From assembly GCA_964016885.1 (NCBI GenBank), contig OZ024742.1, positions 146,072,001 through 146,136,000 of the forward strand: a stretch of DNA of 64,000 nt, written 5' to 3'. Below the pieces are notes generated by a model, which was not told the DNA's origin, ran no database searches, and saw only the letters and a program-made list of their open reading frames with translations. Each line of letters opens with the position of its first letter. Position 1 is the first letter of the stretch. Source of the stretch: Eledone cirrhosa (Eukaryota). The translations under genes and the position numbers were made by a program. Positions 30,471 to 62,772 of the stretch are shown here, one piece after another.

Positions 30471-30584
30471 ATATATATATATATATAGTGGTGGAACACT
30501 GGAAGGTAATATCCGTAGTGGTAGAGCACTCAGTCCATGGGACGAGTTAGGTAGAAGTGGTTACACAACAGTTAGTTCACCATA

Positions 30585-30624
30585 CCGAGAACAATTGTTT
30601 CACCTTAGCGGATCCTCAGCTCGG
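30585..30624 (-). ncRNA. Minimal type-I hammerhead ribozyme
   Basis: The minus strand reads CCGAG-CTGAGGA-T-CC-GCTAA-GG-T-GAAA-CAATTG-TT-CTCGG; stem III is the palindrome ACAATTGT. Confidence 0.8.
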
Positions 30625-30786
30625 AATGGGCATGGTTATAGGAACAGAAAGGACAACCGTACGAACGCGCATGCGCAGAAACCCGGTCACTTCACACAGG
30701 CAATATTAGACTGCGTGCGAGAGATGTAAGGGAGATATCTGCGAAGGTCCGAAAAGTTTTTAGGTTGAAACTAAAATTACAAAGAA

Positions 30787-31527
30787 TCAGTCCGGAGCCT
30801 TGTAGTTATGCAATAGGTGTTTGGCGACGTGTGGACAACGTGTGAAAAATTCATTTCTCGTGTTTAGGCAATCACTATTGCGTAATCTGTTTAGAATAGT
30901 TATTCGTTCGTCAATACATAAGCCACACGTCGGATTTCCCCTTGCGTATGGCTTGGACTTAGTGATGGCTTTCCATTGAATGGAGTAGTCTATACTTGAG
31001 TCCTTGAGGGACCATACGTGGGTCGCGAGTTTCGTGGATGAACGTCTGTCCGGGTACCTGAAGGTAGACTGGTGGTTCAGGAAACGTTCCTTAAATCGGC
31101 CCTCTGCCATGCCCACATAGGATTTGACCTCCTGTGGTTCGTTTGGTCGGTTGGAAGTGACCACAGCTTCATAAATTACAGCTGGTTTATTGCATTGCTG
31201 TTGAAGGAGGAAAGCTTCAGGCTTACGGCAAGAGCACCCTGGTGGGGTGTTGCTCCTAGGGCTGCTGGTGATGTGGGCCTTCATGTTCTTAGCGCAGGAG
31301 TATCCTAGTTTAACTTTGTGTCGGTTTAAGATTGAGAGGTATTTATGACCTATGGGAAAGTGTCTATCTAAGAGGGCTAGAAATTTTTTTCCTACATTGG
31401 TTTTAACGTTGAGTGAGAAGGGAGGAGAGAACCAGATAGTTTGTCTATTGTTGCGCTTACTTTTCTTAATGGTGTTGTTGCTAGTGGGAGAGTAAGTGAT
31501 AGGTTGTGAGAAGCCGCTGTTAGCCAA
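30787..31527 (-). CDS. PLE linker plus GIY-YIG endonuclease (C-terminal part of the element ORF)
   Basis: IWFSPPFS..VKTNVGKKFL, CSCR..C, VIYEA..YVG..FKERFLNH, CGLCIDE..LNTRNE..CPH; the upstream RT is frameshifted. Confidence 0.8.
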   Translation of the reverse strand: MANSGFSQPITYSPTSNNTIKKSKRNNRQTIWFSPPFSLNVKTNVGKKFLALLDRHFPIGHKYLSILNRHKVKLGYSCAKNMKAHITSSPRSNTPPGCSCRKPEAFLLQQQCNKPAVIYEAVVTSNRPNEPQEVKSYVGMAEGRFKERFLNHQSTFRYPDRRSSTKLATHVWSLKDSSIDYSIQWKAITKSKPYARGNPTCGLCIDERITILNRLRNSDCLNTRNEFFTRCPHVAKHLLHNYKAPD

Positions 31528-32614
31528 CGCCGTGTTATAGTAGGGTGCCGCTCTGTCAAAGATAGCCTTATTTGAGGAGACGTTTGAGATTCTAGTACTG
31601 ATATTCTTAACGAAGTTTCTAAAAACAGTGGGAGGGTGGCATGAGTCCTTGTGAATGTAATTGAGTTTGTTTCTCGTTTAGCTTATGGAAGGGTCTGTGG
31701 GTGGGTGTGCGAAGGTCTAAATTAATGTCTAAGAAATCTACGCTAGAGAGGTTGGTGGCTACTGTTATCCTAAGTCCTAACCCATTGAAGGTAGAAGCTA
31801 AGTCTTTTTTAAACCGGTCGAGGTCGTGACCACTTTTATGGCTCGATAAGTCAGTCCATCGTCGCGGTATATTCCCGTCCGGGAATCTAACACGTAATTC
31901 CCATAGGTCATAAATACCGCTCCATCCTTAACCGACACAAAGTTAAACTAAGATACTCCTGCGCTAAGAACATGAAGGCCCACATCACCAGCAGCCCTAG
32001 GAGCAACACCCCACCAGGGTGCTCTTGCCGTAAGCCTGAAGCTTTCCCCCTTCAACAGCAATGCAATAAACCAGCTGTAATTTATGAAGCTGTGGTCACT
32101 TCCAACCGACCAAACGAACCACAGGAGGTCAAATCCTATGTGGGCATGGCAGAGGGCCGATTTAAGGAACGTTTCCTGAACCACCAGTCTACCTTCAGGT
32201 ACCCGGACATACGTTCATCCACGAAACTCGCGAGCCACGTATGGTCCCTCAAGGACTCAAGTATAGACTACTCCATTCAATGGAAAGCCATACGCAAGGG
32301 GAAATCCGACGTGTGGCTTATGTATTGACGAACGAATAACTATTCTAAACAGATTACGCAATAATGATTGCCTAAACATGAGAAATGAATTTTTCACACG
32401 TTGCCCACACGTCGCCAAACACCTGTTGCATAACTACAAGGGTCCGGACTGATTCTTTGTAATTTTAGTTTCAACCTAAAAACTTTTCGGACTTTCGCAG
32501 TTATATCCCTTACACCTCTCGCACGCAGTCTGGTATTGCCTGTGTGAAGTGACCGGGTTTCTGCGCATGGGCGTTCGTACGGTCGTCCTTCCGGTTCCTA
32601 TAACCATGCCCATT

Positions 32615-32654
32615 CCGAGCTGAGGATCCGCTAAGGTGAAACAATGGTTCTCGG
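32615..32654 (+). ncRNA. Minimal type-I hammerhead ribozyme (inverted copy)
   Basis: CCGAG-CTGAGGA-TCCGCTAAGGT-GAAA-CAATGG-TT-CTCGG; one change breaks the stem III palindrome. Confidence 0.72.
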
Positions 32655-32699
32655 TATGGTGAACTAACTGTTGTGTAAGCACTTCTATATATATATATA

Positions 32700-56273: not shown

Positions 56274-56626
56274 TCATATATCTGCAACAACAACACGACC
56301 ATCATTTATTGTGGCTTGCTTCATCAGTTGATAGGCAGCCTTGTTCTTGCTGTTCGGGTTGTTGCAGTATTCTTCAGTAGAAGAGCCCATTCCGTCGTCA
56401 TCTTCTCCTTGACTTCCATCAATAAAGGAGGTTTGCATGACACAGTGTCTACGAGAAAGTGGGCTCTGATCAAGGGGTGGCAAATGTGAGGTGAGTTGTT
56501 GGTTCTGTGAAGATGACTTTTGAAAGTGTTGTCTCCGGTAGCAGTAGACGATGATGAGTGTGAGCAATAAGACAAAGATTAGCGGAGCCACAACACATGC
56601 CGTAATCAACAAGATTTCTTCCAAAC
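56274..56626 (-). CDS. Terminal coding exon of a host single-pass (type I) membrane protein: TM helix plus cytoplasmic tail
   Basis: Acceptor ttttcttttaattAG at 56627-56628 (phase 1). TM ILLITACVVAPLIFVLLLTLIIVYCY is followed by RR; complex, non-repetitive sequence; TGA at 56274-56276. Confidence 0.78.
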
Positions 56627-58316: not shown

Positions 58317-60199
58317 TCATCATCATCATCATCATCACCGTTTTACGTCCGTTCTTCCACGCTAGCATGGGTTAGACGGGTTGTCCTGTTGTGGGCAGTG
58401 TCTGGTCGGCTGACCATGCCTTGCTCATACAGGAACTGATCTGGCTTGATTTCTACAGCTGGATGCCCTTCCTAACACCAACCTCATTTACAGTGAGTGC
58501 TGGGTGCTTTTTCGTGGCGCCTACACGTCCACTTTACAGTGTGGGCTGGGTGCTTTTTTGCCGTGGCACCTCCACGACCACCTTGCGGTGGGGGGGGGGG
58601 GCATATTGTTTATATGCTTCAGCATGTACCCATGGGAGGTCGGGTACCCTGTATTACTGCGTGACGCCAGAAGTCACGGTCGTGTGTCATTGACTTTGAG
58701 AGGTGTAGTTGGGTAAGGTCGGCTTTTATCACCTCATCCCAAGTCATCTTGGGTCTCCCCACTCCGCGGTTTCCATCAACTTCTAGTGCTCTGCACCTTT
58801 TTATGCAGCTGTCATCCTTCATACGCATCACATGTCCATACCAGCGTAACCGCCTCTCCTGCACGCAGCATTTGATTCCTCTTATGCTCAGTCTCTCTCT
58901 CAATTCATTTATGCTTTGTCGTTCACGTATATTACTGTTACACATCCATCGGAGCATGCAGGCTTCGTTTCTCTCTAATCTACGTAAGTCTTCCACCTTC
59001 AGCGCCCAGGTCTCACTACCATGCAACATCGCTGTTCGGATACACGCATCATACAGTCTGCCTTTCATTCTGAGGGAGAAGCCTTTTGCAGCTAGCAGTG
59101 GTAGTAGTTCCCTAAACTTCTTCCATCCCGTTCTTACCCTAGTTATTGTACTTTCTGAGCACCCACCTCCGTTGCTAATTCGGTCACCTAGGTAGCAGAA
59201 GCTGTCTACTGTTTCTACAGGGCCCTCCCAGAGATTGGTGGTACTTGTTTCCTGTGGCTGTTTGCTTGCTGTTTCAGCACAGCTGCTGCATGTGAATCCT
59301 ACATTCTTAATTAAGCTTCCTGAGATCCCGCTACATCTCTTGTGTACCCATTGTTTGCATTTGGGGCAGAGAATGGAGTTCCTACCTACACCTTTCCTAC
59401 ATACTGAGCAAGGCCATTTCCCTGAGGGGATCTGGGTTCTGTTTTCTCGTCTACTTATAAGGACCTTAGTCTTTGTCATGTTGACTTTGAGGCCCTTTCT
59501 CTCTAGTCCCTGCTTCCAGGTTTGGAATTTATTCTCTAGTTCTACCATAGATTCAGCTATGAGTGCGAGGTCATCAGCATACAGGAGTTCCCATGGGCAT
59601 CCGGTCTTAAACTCCTCCGTTATTGCCTGCAGGACTATGATGAACAGGAGAGGGCTAAGAACAGAGCCCTGGTGGACCCCAACCTGTACGCTAAATTCCT
59701 CGCTATACTCATTGCCAATCCTAACTTTGCTGACTGCTCCCCTATACATGGCTTGTACCGCTTTCACAAGCCATTCATCTACTCCTAGTTTTCTAAGAGC
59801 CCACCAGATTACTGCACGTGGAACTCTGTCAAAGGCTTTCTCAAGGTCGACAAATGCCAAGTAGAGTGGCTTACTTTTAGCTAGGTACTTTTCCTGTAAT
59901 TGCCTCACAAGGAAGAGCGCATCAGTGGTGCCTTTCCCTGGAACAAACCCAAATTGCATCTCGTCTATATTCACCCGGTCCCTAATCAGCTGTGCTATAA
60001 CTCTTTCTGTTACTTTCATGACCTGGTCCATCAACTTTATACCTCTATAGTTTCCTCTATCTAGTGCATCGCCTTTACCTTTGTAGCAGTTGACAATGAT
60101 GCTACTGCACCAATCTTTTGGTATGGCCCCCTCTAGTATTACCTGGTTAACGATACGTGTGGTTATAGTGTGACCTACAGACCCAGATGCCTTCAGCAT
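58317..60199 (-). mobile_element. Young 5'-truncated RTE LINE
   Basis: (TCA)n tail, 3'UTR and an uninterrupted ORF; inserted in (TA)n. Confidence 0.95.
58619..60199 (-). CDS. Intact RT + PHD-like finger + C-terminal domain of RTE ORF2 (no endonuclease)
   Basis: 526-aa open frame with NYRGI, QFGF, FVDLEKAFD, GVHQGS, YADD and a C4HC3 finger. Confidence 0.85.
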   Translation of the reverse strand: MLKASGSVGHTITTRIVNQVILEGAIPKDWCSSIIVNCYKGKGDALDRGNYRGIKLMDQVMKVTERVIAQLIRDRVNIDEMQFGFVPGKGTTDALFLVRQLQEKYLAKSKPLYLAFVDLEKAFDRVPRAVIWWALRKLGVDEWLVKAVQAMYRGAVSKVRIGNEYSEEFSVQVGVHQGSVLSPLLFIIVLQAITEEFKTGCPWELLYADDLALIAESMVELENKFQTWKQGLERKGLKVNMTKTKVLISRRENRTQIPSGKWPCSVCRKGVGRNSILCPKCKQWVHKRCSGISGSLIKNVGFTCSSCAETASKQPQETSTTNLWEGPVETVDSFCYLGDRISNGGGCSESTITRVRTGWKKFRELLPLLAAKGFSLRMKGRLYDACIRTAMLHGSETWALKVEDLRRLERNEACMLRWMCNSNIRERQSINELRERLSIRGIKCCVQERRLRWYGHVMRMKDDSCIKRCRALEVDGNRGVGRPKMTWDEVIKADLTQLHLSKSMTHDRDFWRHAVIQGTRPPMGTC

Positions 60200-60694
60200 A
60201 TATATAAATTAATACGGATTGGACACTACCGTATATTTTGGTAGATTTATCTACATATATATATAAATTTTAACAACATCTTCCAACCAACACAGGTTCC
60301 TGCTCTCTTGCTATCTCTCAGAAACAAATGTGTAGTTACCATTGCTCTCTACAGTGCCATCTCCACCAACATCTCACATGCCCTCTGCCATTACTCAATA
60401 CTAGAAGTTGCTGTGATTTTGTTAGAGCAAACATTGCCCTGGTGAAATCACAGCAACTCTTCTTTTGTTGGTTCCATGATATATGATGTACACAGTACAC
60501 TGAGAATAGCCATAGTGCTGGTGGCACAATAATATTCACCCAGTACATTCTGTAAGGGGCAATGCTCGTGCTATGATAAAACACACTCAGCGTACTCTGT
60601 AAAGTAGCTGTGCTCATTCCATGGTAAAATGCATCCAGAACATTGTGTAAAGTTGTTTCTCATTGTATCTGTATATAAACCAGTACAGAGATAC

Positions 60695-61475
60695 AAGGAG
60701 AAAGGCAGAACAATGAGAAAAGGAGAGAAAGGAGGACAAAGAGAAAAGGATAGCAAAGAGAAAAGGAGAGCAAGGAGAGCAAGGAGAAAAGGAGAGCAAT
60801 GAGAAAAGGAGAGCAAGGAGAAAAGGAGAGCAAGGAGAAAAGGAGAGCAAGGAGAAAGGGGGAGAAAGAAGAGCAAGGAGAAAGGGAGAACAAGGAGAGC
60901 AAGGGTAAAAGGAGAGCAAGGAGAGGAACGGGAAAAGGGGAGCAAGGAGAGGAAGGAAAATGAGAAAAGGAGAGTATGGAGAGCAATGAGAAAAGGAGAG
61001 CAAGGAGAGGAAAGAGAAAAGGAGAGCAAGGAGAAATGGAGTGCAAGGAGAGCAAGGAGAAAAGGAGAGCAAAATAAAAGGAGAACAAAGATAAAAGGAG
61101 AGCAAGGAGAGGAAGGAAAAAATGAGAGCAAGGAGAAAAAGAGTGCAAGGAGAGCAATGAGAAAAGGAGAGCAAGTAGAAAAGGAAAGCAAGTAGAAAAG
61201 GAAAGCAAGTAGAAAAGGAGAGCAAGGAGAAATGGAGAATAAGGAGAGCAAGGAGAAAAGGAGAACAAGGCGAGGAATGAGAAAAGGAAAAGGAGAGCAA
61301 AGAGGAAAGGAGTGCAAGGAGTGCAATGAATAAAGGAGAGCAAGGAGGGGAAGGAGAAAAAGAGAGCAAGGAGAGCAATGAGAAAAGGAGAGCAATGAGA
61401 GGAAGGAGAAAATGAGAGCAGGGAGAGCAAGGAGAGGAAGGAGAAAAGGAGAGCAATGAGAAAAGGAGAGCAAAG
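60695..61475 (+). repeat. Polypurine degenerate tandem repeat (aaggagagc/aaggagaa units)
   Basis: Direct reading; about 780 bp, overwhelmingly A/G. Confidence 0.93.
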
Positions 61476-61487
61476 AGTGGTTAAGGT

Positions 61488-62267: not shown

Positions 62268-62335
<68 letters not shown>

Positions 62336-62420
62336 TAAGTTATTCCGGGTTGAATCGGAGGTAACCACAGTAAGTAAGGTACTCAATACATAGCAGAGTA
62401 TAAAAGTTTTAATATAGATG

Positions 62421-62471
62421 AGATTCTACAAGACTAGAACTGTTTCATTTTTTAGAAATCATCAGGAATCT
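62421..62471 (-). ncRNA. Type-I hammerhead ribozyme (inverted copy, 2 substitutions)
   Basis: The minus strand reads AGATTC-CTGATGA-TTTCTAAAAAAT-GAAA-CAG-TTCTAGTC-TTG-TA-GAATCT. Confidence 0.65.
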
Positions 62472-62623
62472 GGCTCTCCAAAATAAATGTTGTGGTATTT
62501 ATATCTTTTCTGGTGGTAGAAGAGGGTGGGGAGTGGGATGGGTGGAGGTCATTGGTTGAAAGAAAAGGGAATTCATTAAAAGCTAATTCTTTAAGGCTAT
62601 AATTATATTTATTTTGGACAGCC

Positions 62624-62674
62624 AGATTCCTGATGATTTCTAAAGAATGAAACAGTTCTAGTCCTGTAGAATCT
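62624..62674 (+). ncRNA. Type-I hammerhead ribozyme
   Basis: AGATTC-CTGATGA-T-TTC-TAAA-GAA-T-GAAA-CAG-TTCTAGTC-CTG-TA-GAATCT. Stems I, II and III all pair; the GUA cleavage triplet is at 62666-62668. Confidence 0.82.
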
Positions 62675-62711
62675 CATCTATATTAAAACTATATATATAT
62701 ACACACACACA

Positions 62712-62772
<61 letters not shown>

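What the first reader, a model, noticed from the sequence alone, without database searches (positions are those of the whole stretch)
62333..62690. Tiny element (about 350 bp) with hammerhead ribozymes on both strands
Seen: about 84-bp inverted arms (62405-62488 / 62607-62690) separated by about 120 bp and inserted in (TA)n. Each arm holds a complete type-I hammerhead (CUGAUGA...GAAA, GUA triplet, 6-bp stem I, closed stem III). There is no ORF. Established: Penelope-like elements carry minimal hammerheads in their pLTRs and often form inverted 5' duplications. Inference: this is either an extreme PLE truncation or a non-autonomous retrozyme/MITE-like family whose transcripts of either polarity could self-cleave. 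It lies upstream of the host TM exon on the minus strand (probably intronic), so the minus copy could cut the pre-mRNA.
Basis: partly seen in the sequence, partly recalled or inferred. Interest (0 to 1): 0.75.

Follow-up and report, generated by a model that had tools for sequence, protein, structure and literature searches.

The report
Truncated head-to-head Penelope retrotransposon insertion
The two back-to-back hammerhead-ribozyme motifs are the shortened, mirror-image ends of a common Penelope-type jumping gene sitting in an intron, a known layout that is likely inactive here, although an insertion of the same build elsewhere in the genome begins a huge repeat array made only of this ribozyme motif.

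Summary
The arms, hammerhead motifs, (TA)n target and intronic position are real. It is not a fixed-length MITE or retrozyme family. The stretch is two 5'-truncated, head-to-head copies of the 3' end of a coding Penelope-like element (PLE) that carries the Hydra-clade motifs. The parent (pLTR, tail, RT, GIY-YIG) lies in the same genome and is 94-96% identical over the 278-bp long arm. The exact junction occurs once. Among the first 100 listed hammerhead cores, 16 head-to-head pairs are spaced 40-7,144 bp apart, and all 16 have one tailed and one untailed arm. Opposite-strand hammerhead pairs from truncated PLEs are published (PMC4209133, PMC8557442), and this scan noted the same build on other DNA. 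Cleavage of the host pre-mRNA is unlikely: the minus-strand motif has a mismatch in stem II, and a read-through RNA is predicted to bury it in an 84-bp hairpin. Side find: on C28 an insertion of the same build starts a roughly 377-kb array of about 4,800 78-bp units, each essentially one hammerhead, with no sign of selection or transcription. No RNA data and no cleavage assay were available.

The parts
62271..62333 (.). (TA)n microsatellite, left side of the target; the last base can also belong to the element (the parent continues with T)
   Evidence: sequence; parent continuation
62334..62404 (-). 71-nt PLE 'tail': the sequence that follows the pLTR in coding copies and leads into the RT ORF (first in-frame ATG at about +115); ends in a predicted bulged hairpin
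   Evidence: ATG offset and fold (-10.7 kcal/mol)
62405..62488 (-). left inverted arm = last 84 nt of the pLTR of the tailed copy
62421..62471 (-). type-I hammerhead motif, damaged: stem II C.A mismatch at 62450, stem III G-U at 62431; predicted cut after 62427; sense to the host pre-mRNA
   Evidence: (fold energy +1.0 against -4.2 kcal/mol for the plus copy)
62489..62611 (-). further upstream pLTR sequence of the tailed copy (the 'spacer'); 5' truncation point at -207 from the pLTR end
62607..62611 (.). 5-nt overlap (microhomology) joining the two truncated copies; this junction is unique in the genome
62607..62690 (+). right inverted arm = second, tail-less copy truncated at -83 and ending exactly at the pLTR end
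62624..62674 (+). type-I hammerhead motif, identical to the commonest family form; predicted cut after 62668
62691..62770 (.). (TA)n, then (CA)n and (TA)n: right side of the target
   Evidence: sequence
56277..56626 (-). last coding exon (TM and cytoplasmic tail) of the host gene; the next exon upstream lies about 15 kb beyond the window end, so the element is in a 22.5-kb last intron

Best explanation
This is a pair of 5'-truncated, head-to-head copies of the 3' end of a coding Penelope-like retrotransposon with Hydra-clade motifs, lying in a (TA)n tract in the last intron of a host gene; it likely arose in one insertion event and is likely inert. Inferred mechanism: the element's GIY-YIG endonuclease cut both strands of the (TA)n tract; its RT primed one cDNA from each cut end on uncleaved element RNA, one starting at the tail end (+71) and one at the pLTR end (0); both stopped early (278 and 84 nt) and were joined through a 5-nt microhomology. 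The hammerheads are on both strands only because both cDNAs include the pLTR end. A read-through RNA of either polarity is predicted to fold into an 84-bp hairpin that hides the ribozyme. Shown: anatomy, parent, junction, variable lengths, one-tail pattern, intron. Inferred: the enzymatic steps and the inactivity.
For: Parent: the tail runs on into one shared sequence at 15 places listed; 12 were fetched and 11 of 12 continue about 380 nt or more past the pLTR end into an RT ORF; the long arm is 94-96% identical to L064, L066, L070 and L072. L064 and L070 show pLTR+tail, ORF, microsatellite-rich 3' UTR, tail-less pLTR. Motifs RW[KR], DKT, YRDD, CxCX5C, YIGxT, CxxC, CxH are those listed for Hydra (PMC8557442 section 11). 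Not a fixed unit: of 40 scored candidates 3 match the whole 357 bp and 37 only about the first 278; the 3 have different junctions; the window's junction has 1 match. Of 18 neighbouring cores within 8 kb among the first 100 of 6,570 rows, 16 are head-to-head at 40-7,144 bp; 16 of 16 have one arm ending at +64..+76 and one at -15..+6. Both arms of a pair carry the same subfamily type in the pairs printed, and are closer to each other than to arms of other loci (mean difference 1.8% against 4.7%; best or tied-best match in 8 of 12 pairs). PAc cuts and extends both strands and starts RT at two sites flanking the tail, on uncleaved RNA (PMC11167929). Hairpin -141.6 kcal/mol on the minus strand; forcing the hammerhead fold costs about 80 kcal/mol.
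Against: No fetched parent copy has an intact ORF, so current activity is not shown. Pfam found no RT family in L063 and only a sub-threshold GIY-YIG hit in L062 (E 0.0013, 19.4 bits against a cut-off of 22.6); the PDB search found nothing meaningful; no tree against reference PLEs was built. The two-primer model is carried over from a Poseidon element in vitro, and fold-back copying of one cDNA also fits same-subfamily arms; several junctions are near-symmetric or have filler (overlap -32 to +6). In 4 of 12 pairs an arm of another locus was closer than the partner. The 16 pairs come from the first 85 Mb of C1 and need an exact core in both arms, which favours young copies. Folding is secondary structure only.
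Confidence: 0.93

Rival explanations
1. A non-autonomous, fixed-length MITE- or retrozyme-like family that is copied as a two-armed 350-bp unit.
For: Two other loci match the full 357 bp at 91% (L002, L003). Many single-armed copies stop near the same (CA)n/(TA)n tract about 560-620 bp upstream of the pLTR end, which mimics a fixed size.
Against: In L002 and L003 the short arms are 99 and 79 nt and the junctions differ; the window's junction is unique; pair spacing is 40-7,144 bp; the microsatellite is part of the coding parent's 3' UTR. The unit is not a head-to-tail repeat.
Confidence: 0.03
2. Same origin, but the insertion acts on the host gene: the minus-strand hammerhead cuts the pre-mRNA in the last intron.
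For: The element is intronic and the minus motif is in the sense of the gene; its core and GUA are unchanged; helix III can form as a dimer through the palindromic loop (-7.4 kcal/mol for the minus copy, -12.8 for the plus copy).
Against: The minus motif has lost a stem II pair; its antisense is transcribed first; the hammerhead fold has probability about 0 in the whole and in the nascent RNA. Metazoan PLE hammerheads showed little or no cleavage as monomers (PMC4209133), and the PAc hammerhead needed its protein (PMC11167929).
Confidence: 0.03
3. Same parent, but the inverted arm came from fold-back (snap-back) copying of a single cDNA, not from two primers.
For: Arms share subfamily variants; some junctions are symmetric (L078 -72/-72, L074 -208/-207, L122 -80/-80).
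Against: Fold-back does not by itself explain why the second arm stops at the pLTR end and omits the tail in 16 of 16 pairs; in the window the arms are very unequal (-207/-83). This rival concerns the mechanism only and leaves the identity unchanged.
Confidence: 0.25

Closest known systems
Hydra clade of Penelope-like elements (Craig et al. 2021, PMC8557442), e.g. Penelope-13_HM and Hydra-1_Obim
   Same: C-terminal GIY-YIG, RWK, DKT, CxCX5C linker, CxxC/CxH, ORF of about 712 codons, (TA)n target, hammerhead in the pLTR with the 'ctgatgat...tgaa' core. Penelope-13_HM is listed with a 5'-truncated inverted copy and a hammerhead on each strand.
   Different: A different family from Hydra-1_Obim (different hammerhead sequence; RT similar by eye only). 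The tail is 71 nt against the 30-40 nt given as typical; helix III has a longer, 8-nt loop; the 3' UTR holds a long microsatellite.
Dual minimal hammerheads on opposite strands in Schistosoma mansoni (Cervera and de la Pena 2014, PMC4209133)
   Same: Two PLE hammerheads about 100-700 bp apart on opposite strands, in a passage that relates the dispersed motifs to truncated PLEs; here the two motifs start 182 bp apart.
   Different: This motif has a 6-bp stem I, a short stem II with U.U in place of G10.1-C11.1, and a 4-bp stem III, so it is not a 'minimal' motif lacking helix III.
PAc (Poseidon_Ac) of Anolis carolinensis (Frangieh et al. 2024, PMC11167929)
   Same: Two RT start sites flanking the tail, AT-rich target, both strands cut and extended, uncleaved RNA as template.
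   Different: Different clade; its start sites lie inside the ORF (+111-118), whereas here both ends lie upstream of the first in-frame ATG. The passages read do not describe head-to-head products.
Metazoan non-LTR retrozymes (PMC7229834; bioRxiv 10.64898/2026.07.22.740005)
   Same: Type-I hammerhead, no ORF, PLE-related; the C28 array and the L033 three-junction repeat of this family have the head-to-tail layout.
   Different: The window element is head-to-head and single. The C28 array (78-bp unit, about 4,800 units at one place) exceeds the repeat limits quoted in those papers (62; 300) and shows no dispersed units or selection.

Membership tests
EN+ Penelope-like element (truncated copy) | Sequence is the pLTR/3' end of an element with one RT + GIY-YIG ORF | tested here: met
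   the GIY-YIG Pfam hit is below the cut-off; all fetched ORFs are broken
EN+ Penelope-like element (truncated copy) | Variable 5' truncation with an inverted truncated copy at the 5' end | tested here: met
EN+ Penelope-like element (truncated copy) | [quoted passage not shown] | tested here: met
   16 of 16 sampled pairs plus L001-L003
EN+ Penelope-like element (truncated copy) | Type-I hammerhead in the pLTR, sense to the ORF | tested here: met
   no Rfam hit
Hydra clade | RWK motif and DKT in place of DKG | tested here: met
   RWK in L068, RWR in L070; DKT in L068, L070, L072
Hydra clade | CxCX5C linker; CxxC and CxH in the EN; CCHH absent | tested here: met
   L062, L064, L070; absence of CCHH judged by eye
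Hydra clade | Insertion into (TA)n | tested here: met
Hydra clade | Groups with Hydra in an RT tree | not tested
   reference proteins were seen only in the paper's supplement and compared by eye
Non-LTR retrozyme | Head-to-tail monomers flanked by same-sense hammerheads | tested here: not met
   the two motifs face outward on opposite strands
Non-LTR retrozyme | Expressed as linear/circular monomer RNA; self-cleavage | not testable with these tools
   no RNA holder listed; no assay
MITE / fixed-length non-autonomous family | Many dispersed copies of the same length and junction, terminal inverted repeats at both ends | tested here: not met
   unique junction; variable lengths; the 71-nt tail lies outside the left arm

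The most novel reading that the evidence does not exclude
Tiny two-armed PLE insertions like this one are the seeds of hammerhead satellites. On C28 an insertion of the same family and build ((TA)n, tail, inverted arm, junction at -80/-80) continues directly into about 377 kb of 78-bp head-to-tail units, each the last 78 nt of the pLTR and so a bare hammerhead. If transcribed, the array would give dimer-competent ribozymes that cut it into 78-nt RNAs or circles: a retrozyme-like locus caught at its birth from a PLE end, more than ten times longer than the arrays quoted in the two retrozyme papers read. The origin from a two-armed insertion is well supported by the sequence; the probability given is for the full reading with transcription and self-processing.
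Probability: 0.15. Interest if true: 0.6.

Novelty: new member of a known kind. Interest (0 to 1): 0.2.

Why it matters
The element itself matters little: it is one of probably hundreds of similar scars. Two by-products have some value. First, the strict one-tailed/one-untailed pattern of head-to-head pairs is a genomic read-out of the two RT start sites found in vitro for a different PLE clade, and it gives exact coordinates (0 and +71, beside a predicted hairpin) for testing how PLEs prime both target strands. Second, the C28 array shows at sequence level how a PLE end can become a hammerhead satellite, which bears on the proposed PLE origin of animal retrozymes. Long intronic hairpins of this kind could also be substrates for RNA editing in cephalopods (own knowledge; untested).

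Tried and rejected
Rfam scan: no hammerhead family at E<=1. Folding of the isolated arms: no signal over shuffles. Pfam on the parent RT and three homologues: no RT family; PDB sequence search: only E>=0.9; the 120 listed homologues (of 731) carried no informative names. Sequencing runs: no RNA holder listed, which says nothing about expression; the four runs laid are contigs of one study, of unrecorded kind and possibly the assembly's own sample, so they show neither cleavage ends nor circular junctions. They gave the lead to the 78-bp array through 'goes back 77' joints. Cys-rich ORF scanning for host exons was uninformative; tblastn with a homologue solved it. The 221-bp tandem in L033 as a dispersed retrozyme family: rejected, its junction has 3 matches, all at one locus. 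Selection on the hammerhead in the C28 array: not detected (differences per site in 524 distinct 78-nt units: core 3.2%, stems 3.6%, rest 4.3%; 400 of 1,108 units intact against 34% expected from independent changes). Literature: 'hammerhead, satellite DNA, tandem, octopus' found 0 papers; one search listed none on such an array among 15 shown of 36. These two searches do not show that it is unpublished. The preprint's supplements were not seen and may list short-unit arrays. The scan's sequence look-up found nothing.

Full report
Observation. The inverted arms are at the stated places: 62405-62488 and 62607-62690, 84 nt, 96% complementary, 118 nt apart, between (TA)n tracts. Each arm reads outward as a type-I hammerhead layout with a 6-bp stem I, CUGAUGA, a U.U pair plus 3-bp stem II, GAAA, a 4-bp stem III and GUA; the predicted cuts are after 62668 (+) and after 62427 (-). 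The arms differ at 3 of 84 positions. The plus arm is the commonest family form (61 of the descriptor hits in the loci then held, which include duplicate loci); the minus arm has lost a stem II pair and has a G-U in stem III, and its hammerhead fold scores +1.0 against -4.2 kcal/mol. Rfam gave no hammerhead hit at E<=1 and the isolated arms fold no better than shuffles. A related copy with a compensatory change in stem I and copies with changes confined to loop II (L067, L069, L071) support the structure. There is no meaningful ORF.

Family. A search of the own genome (about 3.0 Gb) with the 357-bp unit gave 2,891 candidates, of which 40 were scored: 3 match full length (the window, L002, L003) and 37 only about the first 278 bases. 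The single-armed loci fetched continue into further shared family sequence for varying lengths. L002 and L003 have other junctions and other arm lengths, and the window's junction occurs once. The exact 30-nt hammerhead core occurs 6,570 times, its backwards control never; about 2,300 of these lie in one array (below), which leaves about 4,200 dispersed.

Parent. The 71 nt left of the left arm are a PLE tail. At 15 places listed the tail runs on into one shared sequence instead of (TA)n. Twelve were fetched; 11 of 12 continue about 380 nt or more past the pLTR end into an RT ORF, and the window's long arm is 94-96% identical to the pLTR and tail of L064, L066, L070 and L072. L064 and L070 show the whole layout: pLTR with tail, an ORF of about 712 codons (measured in L062 and L064), a microsatellite-rich 3' UTR and a tail-less pLTR. 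All fetched ORFs carry stops or frameshifts. The proteins have RW[KR], DKT, YRDD, a CxCX5C linker, a C-terminal YIGxT, CxxC and CxH, the features given for the Hydra clade (PMC8557442 section 11). The hammerhead has the 'ctgatgat...tgaa' core of many Hydra-clade motifs in that paper's File S2. Pfam support is weak (GIY-YIG E 0.0013, below cut-off; no RT family), and no tree was built.

Architecture. Among the first 100 listed cores (first 85 Mb of C1), 18 neighbours lie within 8 kb: 16 head-to-head at 40, 55, 206, 224, 338, 342, 372, 382, 698, 1017, 2742, 3257, 4937, 6122, 6809 and 7144 bp, one tail-to-tail and one same-strand. The window's spacing on that scale is 182 bp. All 16 were fetched; in 16 of 16 one arm ends at +64..+76 (tailed) and the other at -15..+6 (untailed) from the pLTR end, while the 5' ends range from about -70 to deep in the ORF. 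The window fits: tailed arm -207..+71, untailed arm -83..0, with a 5-nt overlap. Arms of one pair share subfamily type and are on average closer to each other than to arms of other loci (1.8% against 4.7%; best or tied best in 8 of 12). The sample favours young copies and covers one region.

Mechanism. In vitro, the Poseidon element PAc cuts and extends both target strands, starts reverse transcription at two sites that flank the tail, and uses uncleaved RNA (PMC11167929). The simplest inference is that one (TA)n cut primed two cDNAs, at +71 and at 0, both of which stopped early and were joined by microhomology. Both ends lie 3' of the hammerhead cut (about -22), which fits an uncleaved template. 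Fold-back copying of one cDNA remains possible for the inversion step.

Host gene. The minus-strand exon at 56626-56277 matches P0001, named 'tolloid-like protein 1 [Argonauta hians]' by its source, at 99%; the genome is therefore likely an octopod (inference). P0001 has two CUB domains. tblastn on the window plus the next 200 kb placed eight exons on the minus strand over about 180 kb, the seventh about 15 kb beyond the window end. The element is in the 22.5-kb last intron. The copy in the sense of the pre-mRNA is the damaged one, and its antisense arm is made first; the whole RNA folds into the 84-bp hairpin (-141.6 kcal/mol) and the hammerhead fold has probability about 0, also in a nascent RNA ending at stem I. 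The same holds for a plus-strand read-through. Only an RNA starting inside the spacer would free a motif, and even the intact arm alone reaches the fold with probability 2e-5 in this model, which ignores tertiary contacts; helix III could form as a dimer. Metazoan PLE hammerheads cleaved poorly in vitro (PMC4209133). No RNA data were available.

What is known. PMC8557442 describes inverted 5'-truncated copies and a one-sided tail as typical and lists Penelope-13_HM with a hammerhead on each strand. PMC4209133 reports dual hammerheads about 100-700 bp apart on opposite strands in a passage on truncated PLEs. The finding is thus a new family member of a known kind in a known arrangement. After I had stated this reading, the scan's notes showed the same conclusion for similar elements in this and other genomes; these are unchecked and not counted as support.

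Side find. The strand imbalance (4,456 forward, 2,114 reverse) is explained by an array on C28: a junction pattern gave 702 matches, all forward, and the 100 listed all lie there. It runs from about 30,496,700 to 30,873,700 (377 kb, about 4,800 units of 78 bp). Ten sampled interior 10-kb blocks each held 121-128 units; the rest of the interior was not read. It begins with (TA)n, the tail, an inverted arm and a junction at -80/-80, the same build as the window element, after which the second arm repeats head-to-tail. It ends in three 422-bp-spaced hammerheads of another family. About 36% of units keep an intact motif, close to the 34% expected from independent changes, so no selection is shown. 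Repeat limits quoted for retrozymes are 62 units (PMC7229834) and 300 units with consensus lengths of 51-972 bp (bioRxiv 10.64898/2026.07.22.740005). Unequal crossing-over of a neutral satellite is the likelier cause of its size (inference).

Papers seen. PMC8557442: passages, sections 11 and 20 whole, supplement part 2 of 59 and search hits. PMC4209133: parts 1-2 of 4. PMC11167929: parts 1-2 of 4 and passages. PMC7229834: passages. The 2026 preprint: abstract and Results part 1 of 2, supplements not seen. Searches.

Verdict. An ordinary truncated, inverted insertion of a Hydra-type Penelope-like element; interest 0.2, carried mostly by the one-tail pattern and the C28 array.

Noticed in passing
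G000:C28:30,496,700-30,873,700 (L113-L120, L122-L132, L137): About 377-kb head-to-tail array of about 4,800 78-bp units, each the family's hammerhead (last 78 nt of the pLTR), starting from a two-armed tailed insertion of the same build as the finding; no sign of selection; interior sampled, not fully read.
   Followed up: partly
G000:C28:30,873,700-30,874,700 (L137): The 78-bp array ends directly in three 422-bp-spaced hammerheads of an unrelated family; two 498-bp gaps lie near the array's end.
   Followed up: no
window 30488-32687: A second, longer head-to-head insertion of a different Hydra-like PLE family: arms 30552-30954/32285-32687 and 30965-31358/31898-32291, hammerhead motifs at 30624 (-) and 32615 (+), RT and GIY-YIG remnants, extra tail-like sequence on the left only.
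   Followed up: partly
L033 (G000:C1:67,880,700-67,881,450): Three head-to-tail 221-bp units (hammerhead, tail, first 70 nt beyond) of the same family in one (TA)n site; the junction occurs only here.
   Followed up: yes
window 56277-56626 and the 180 kb beyond the window end: Eight-exon minus-strand gene for a protein with two CUB domains, a Cys-rich segment and one TM helix; the architecture recalls Neto/SOL-2 receptor auxiliary subunits (recalled, not tested) more than the source's name 'tolloid-like'.
   Followed up: partly
window 62334-62370 (-): Predicted bulged hairpin immediately before the fixed +71 end of tailed copies; candidate RT start signal.
   Followed up: partly
window 58600-60150 and 60690-61480: Reverse-strand LINE-like RT fragment and a long GA-rich degenerate repeat in the same intron (read by eye).
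   Followed up: no
L005, L009, L013, L018, L063, L065: Flanks often hold ORF fragments of other PLE families, and several other hammerhead families appear in the fetched loci.
   Followed up: no
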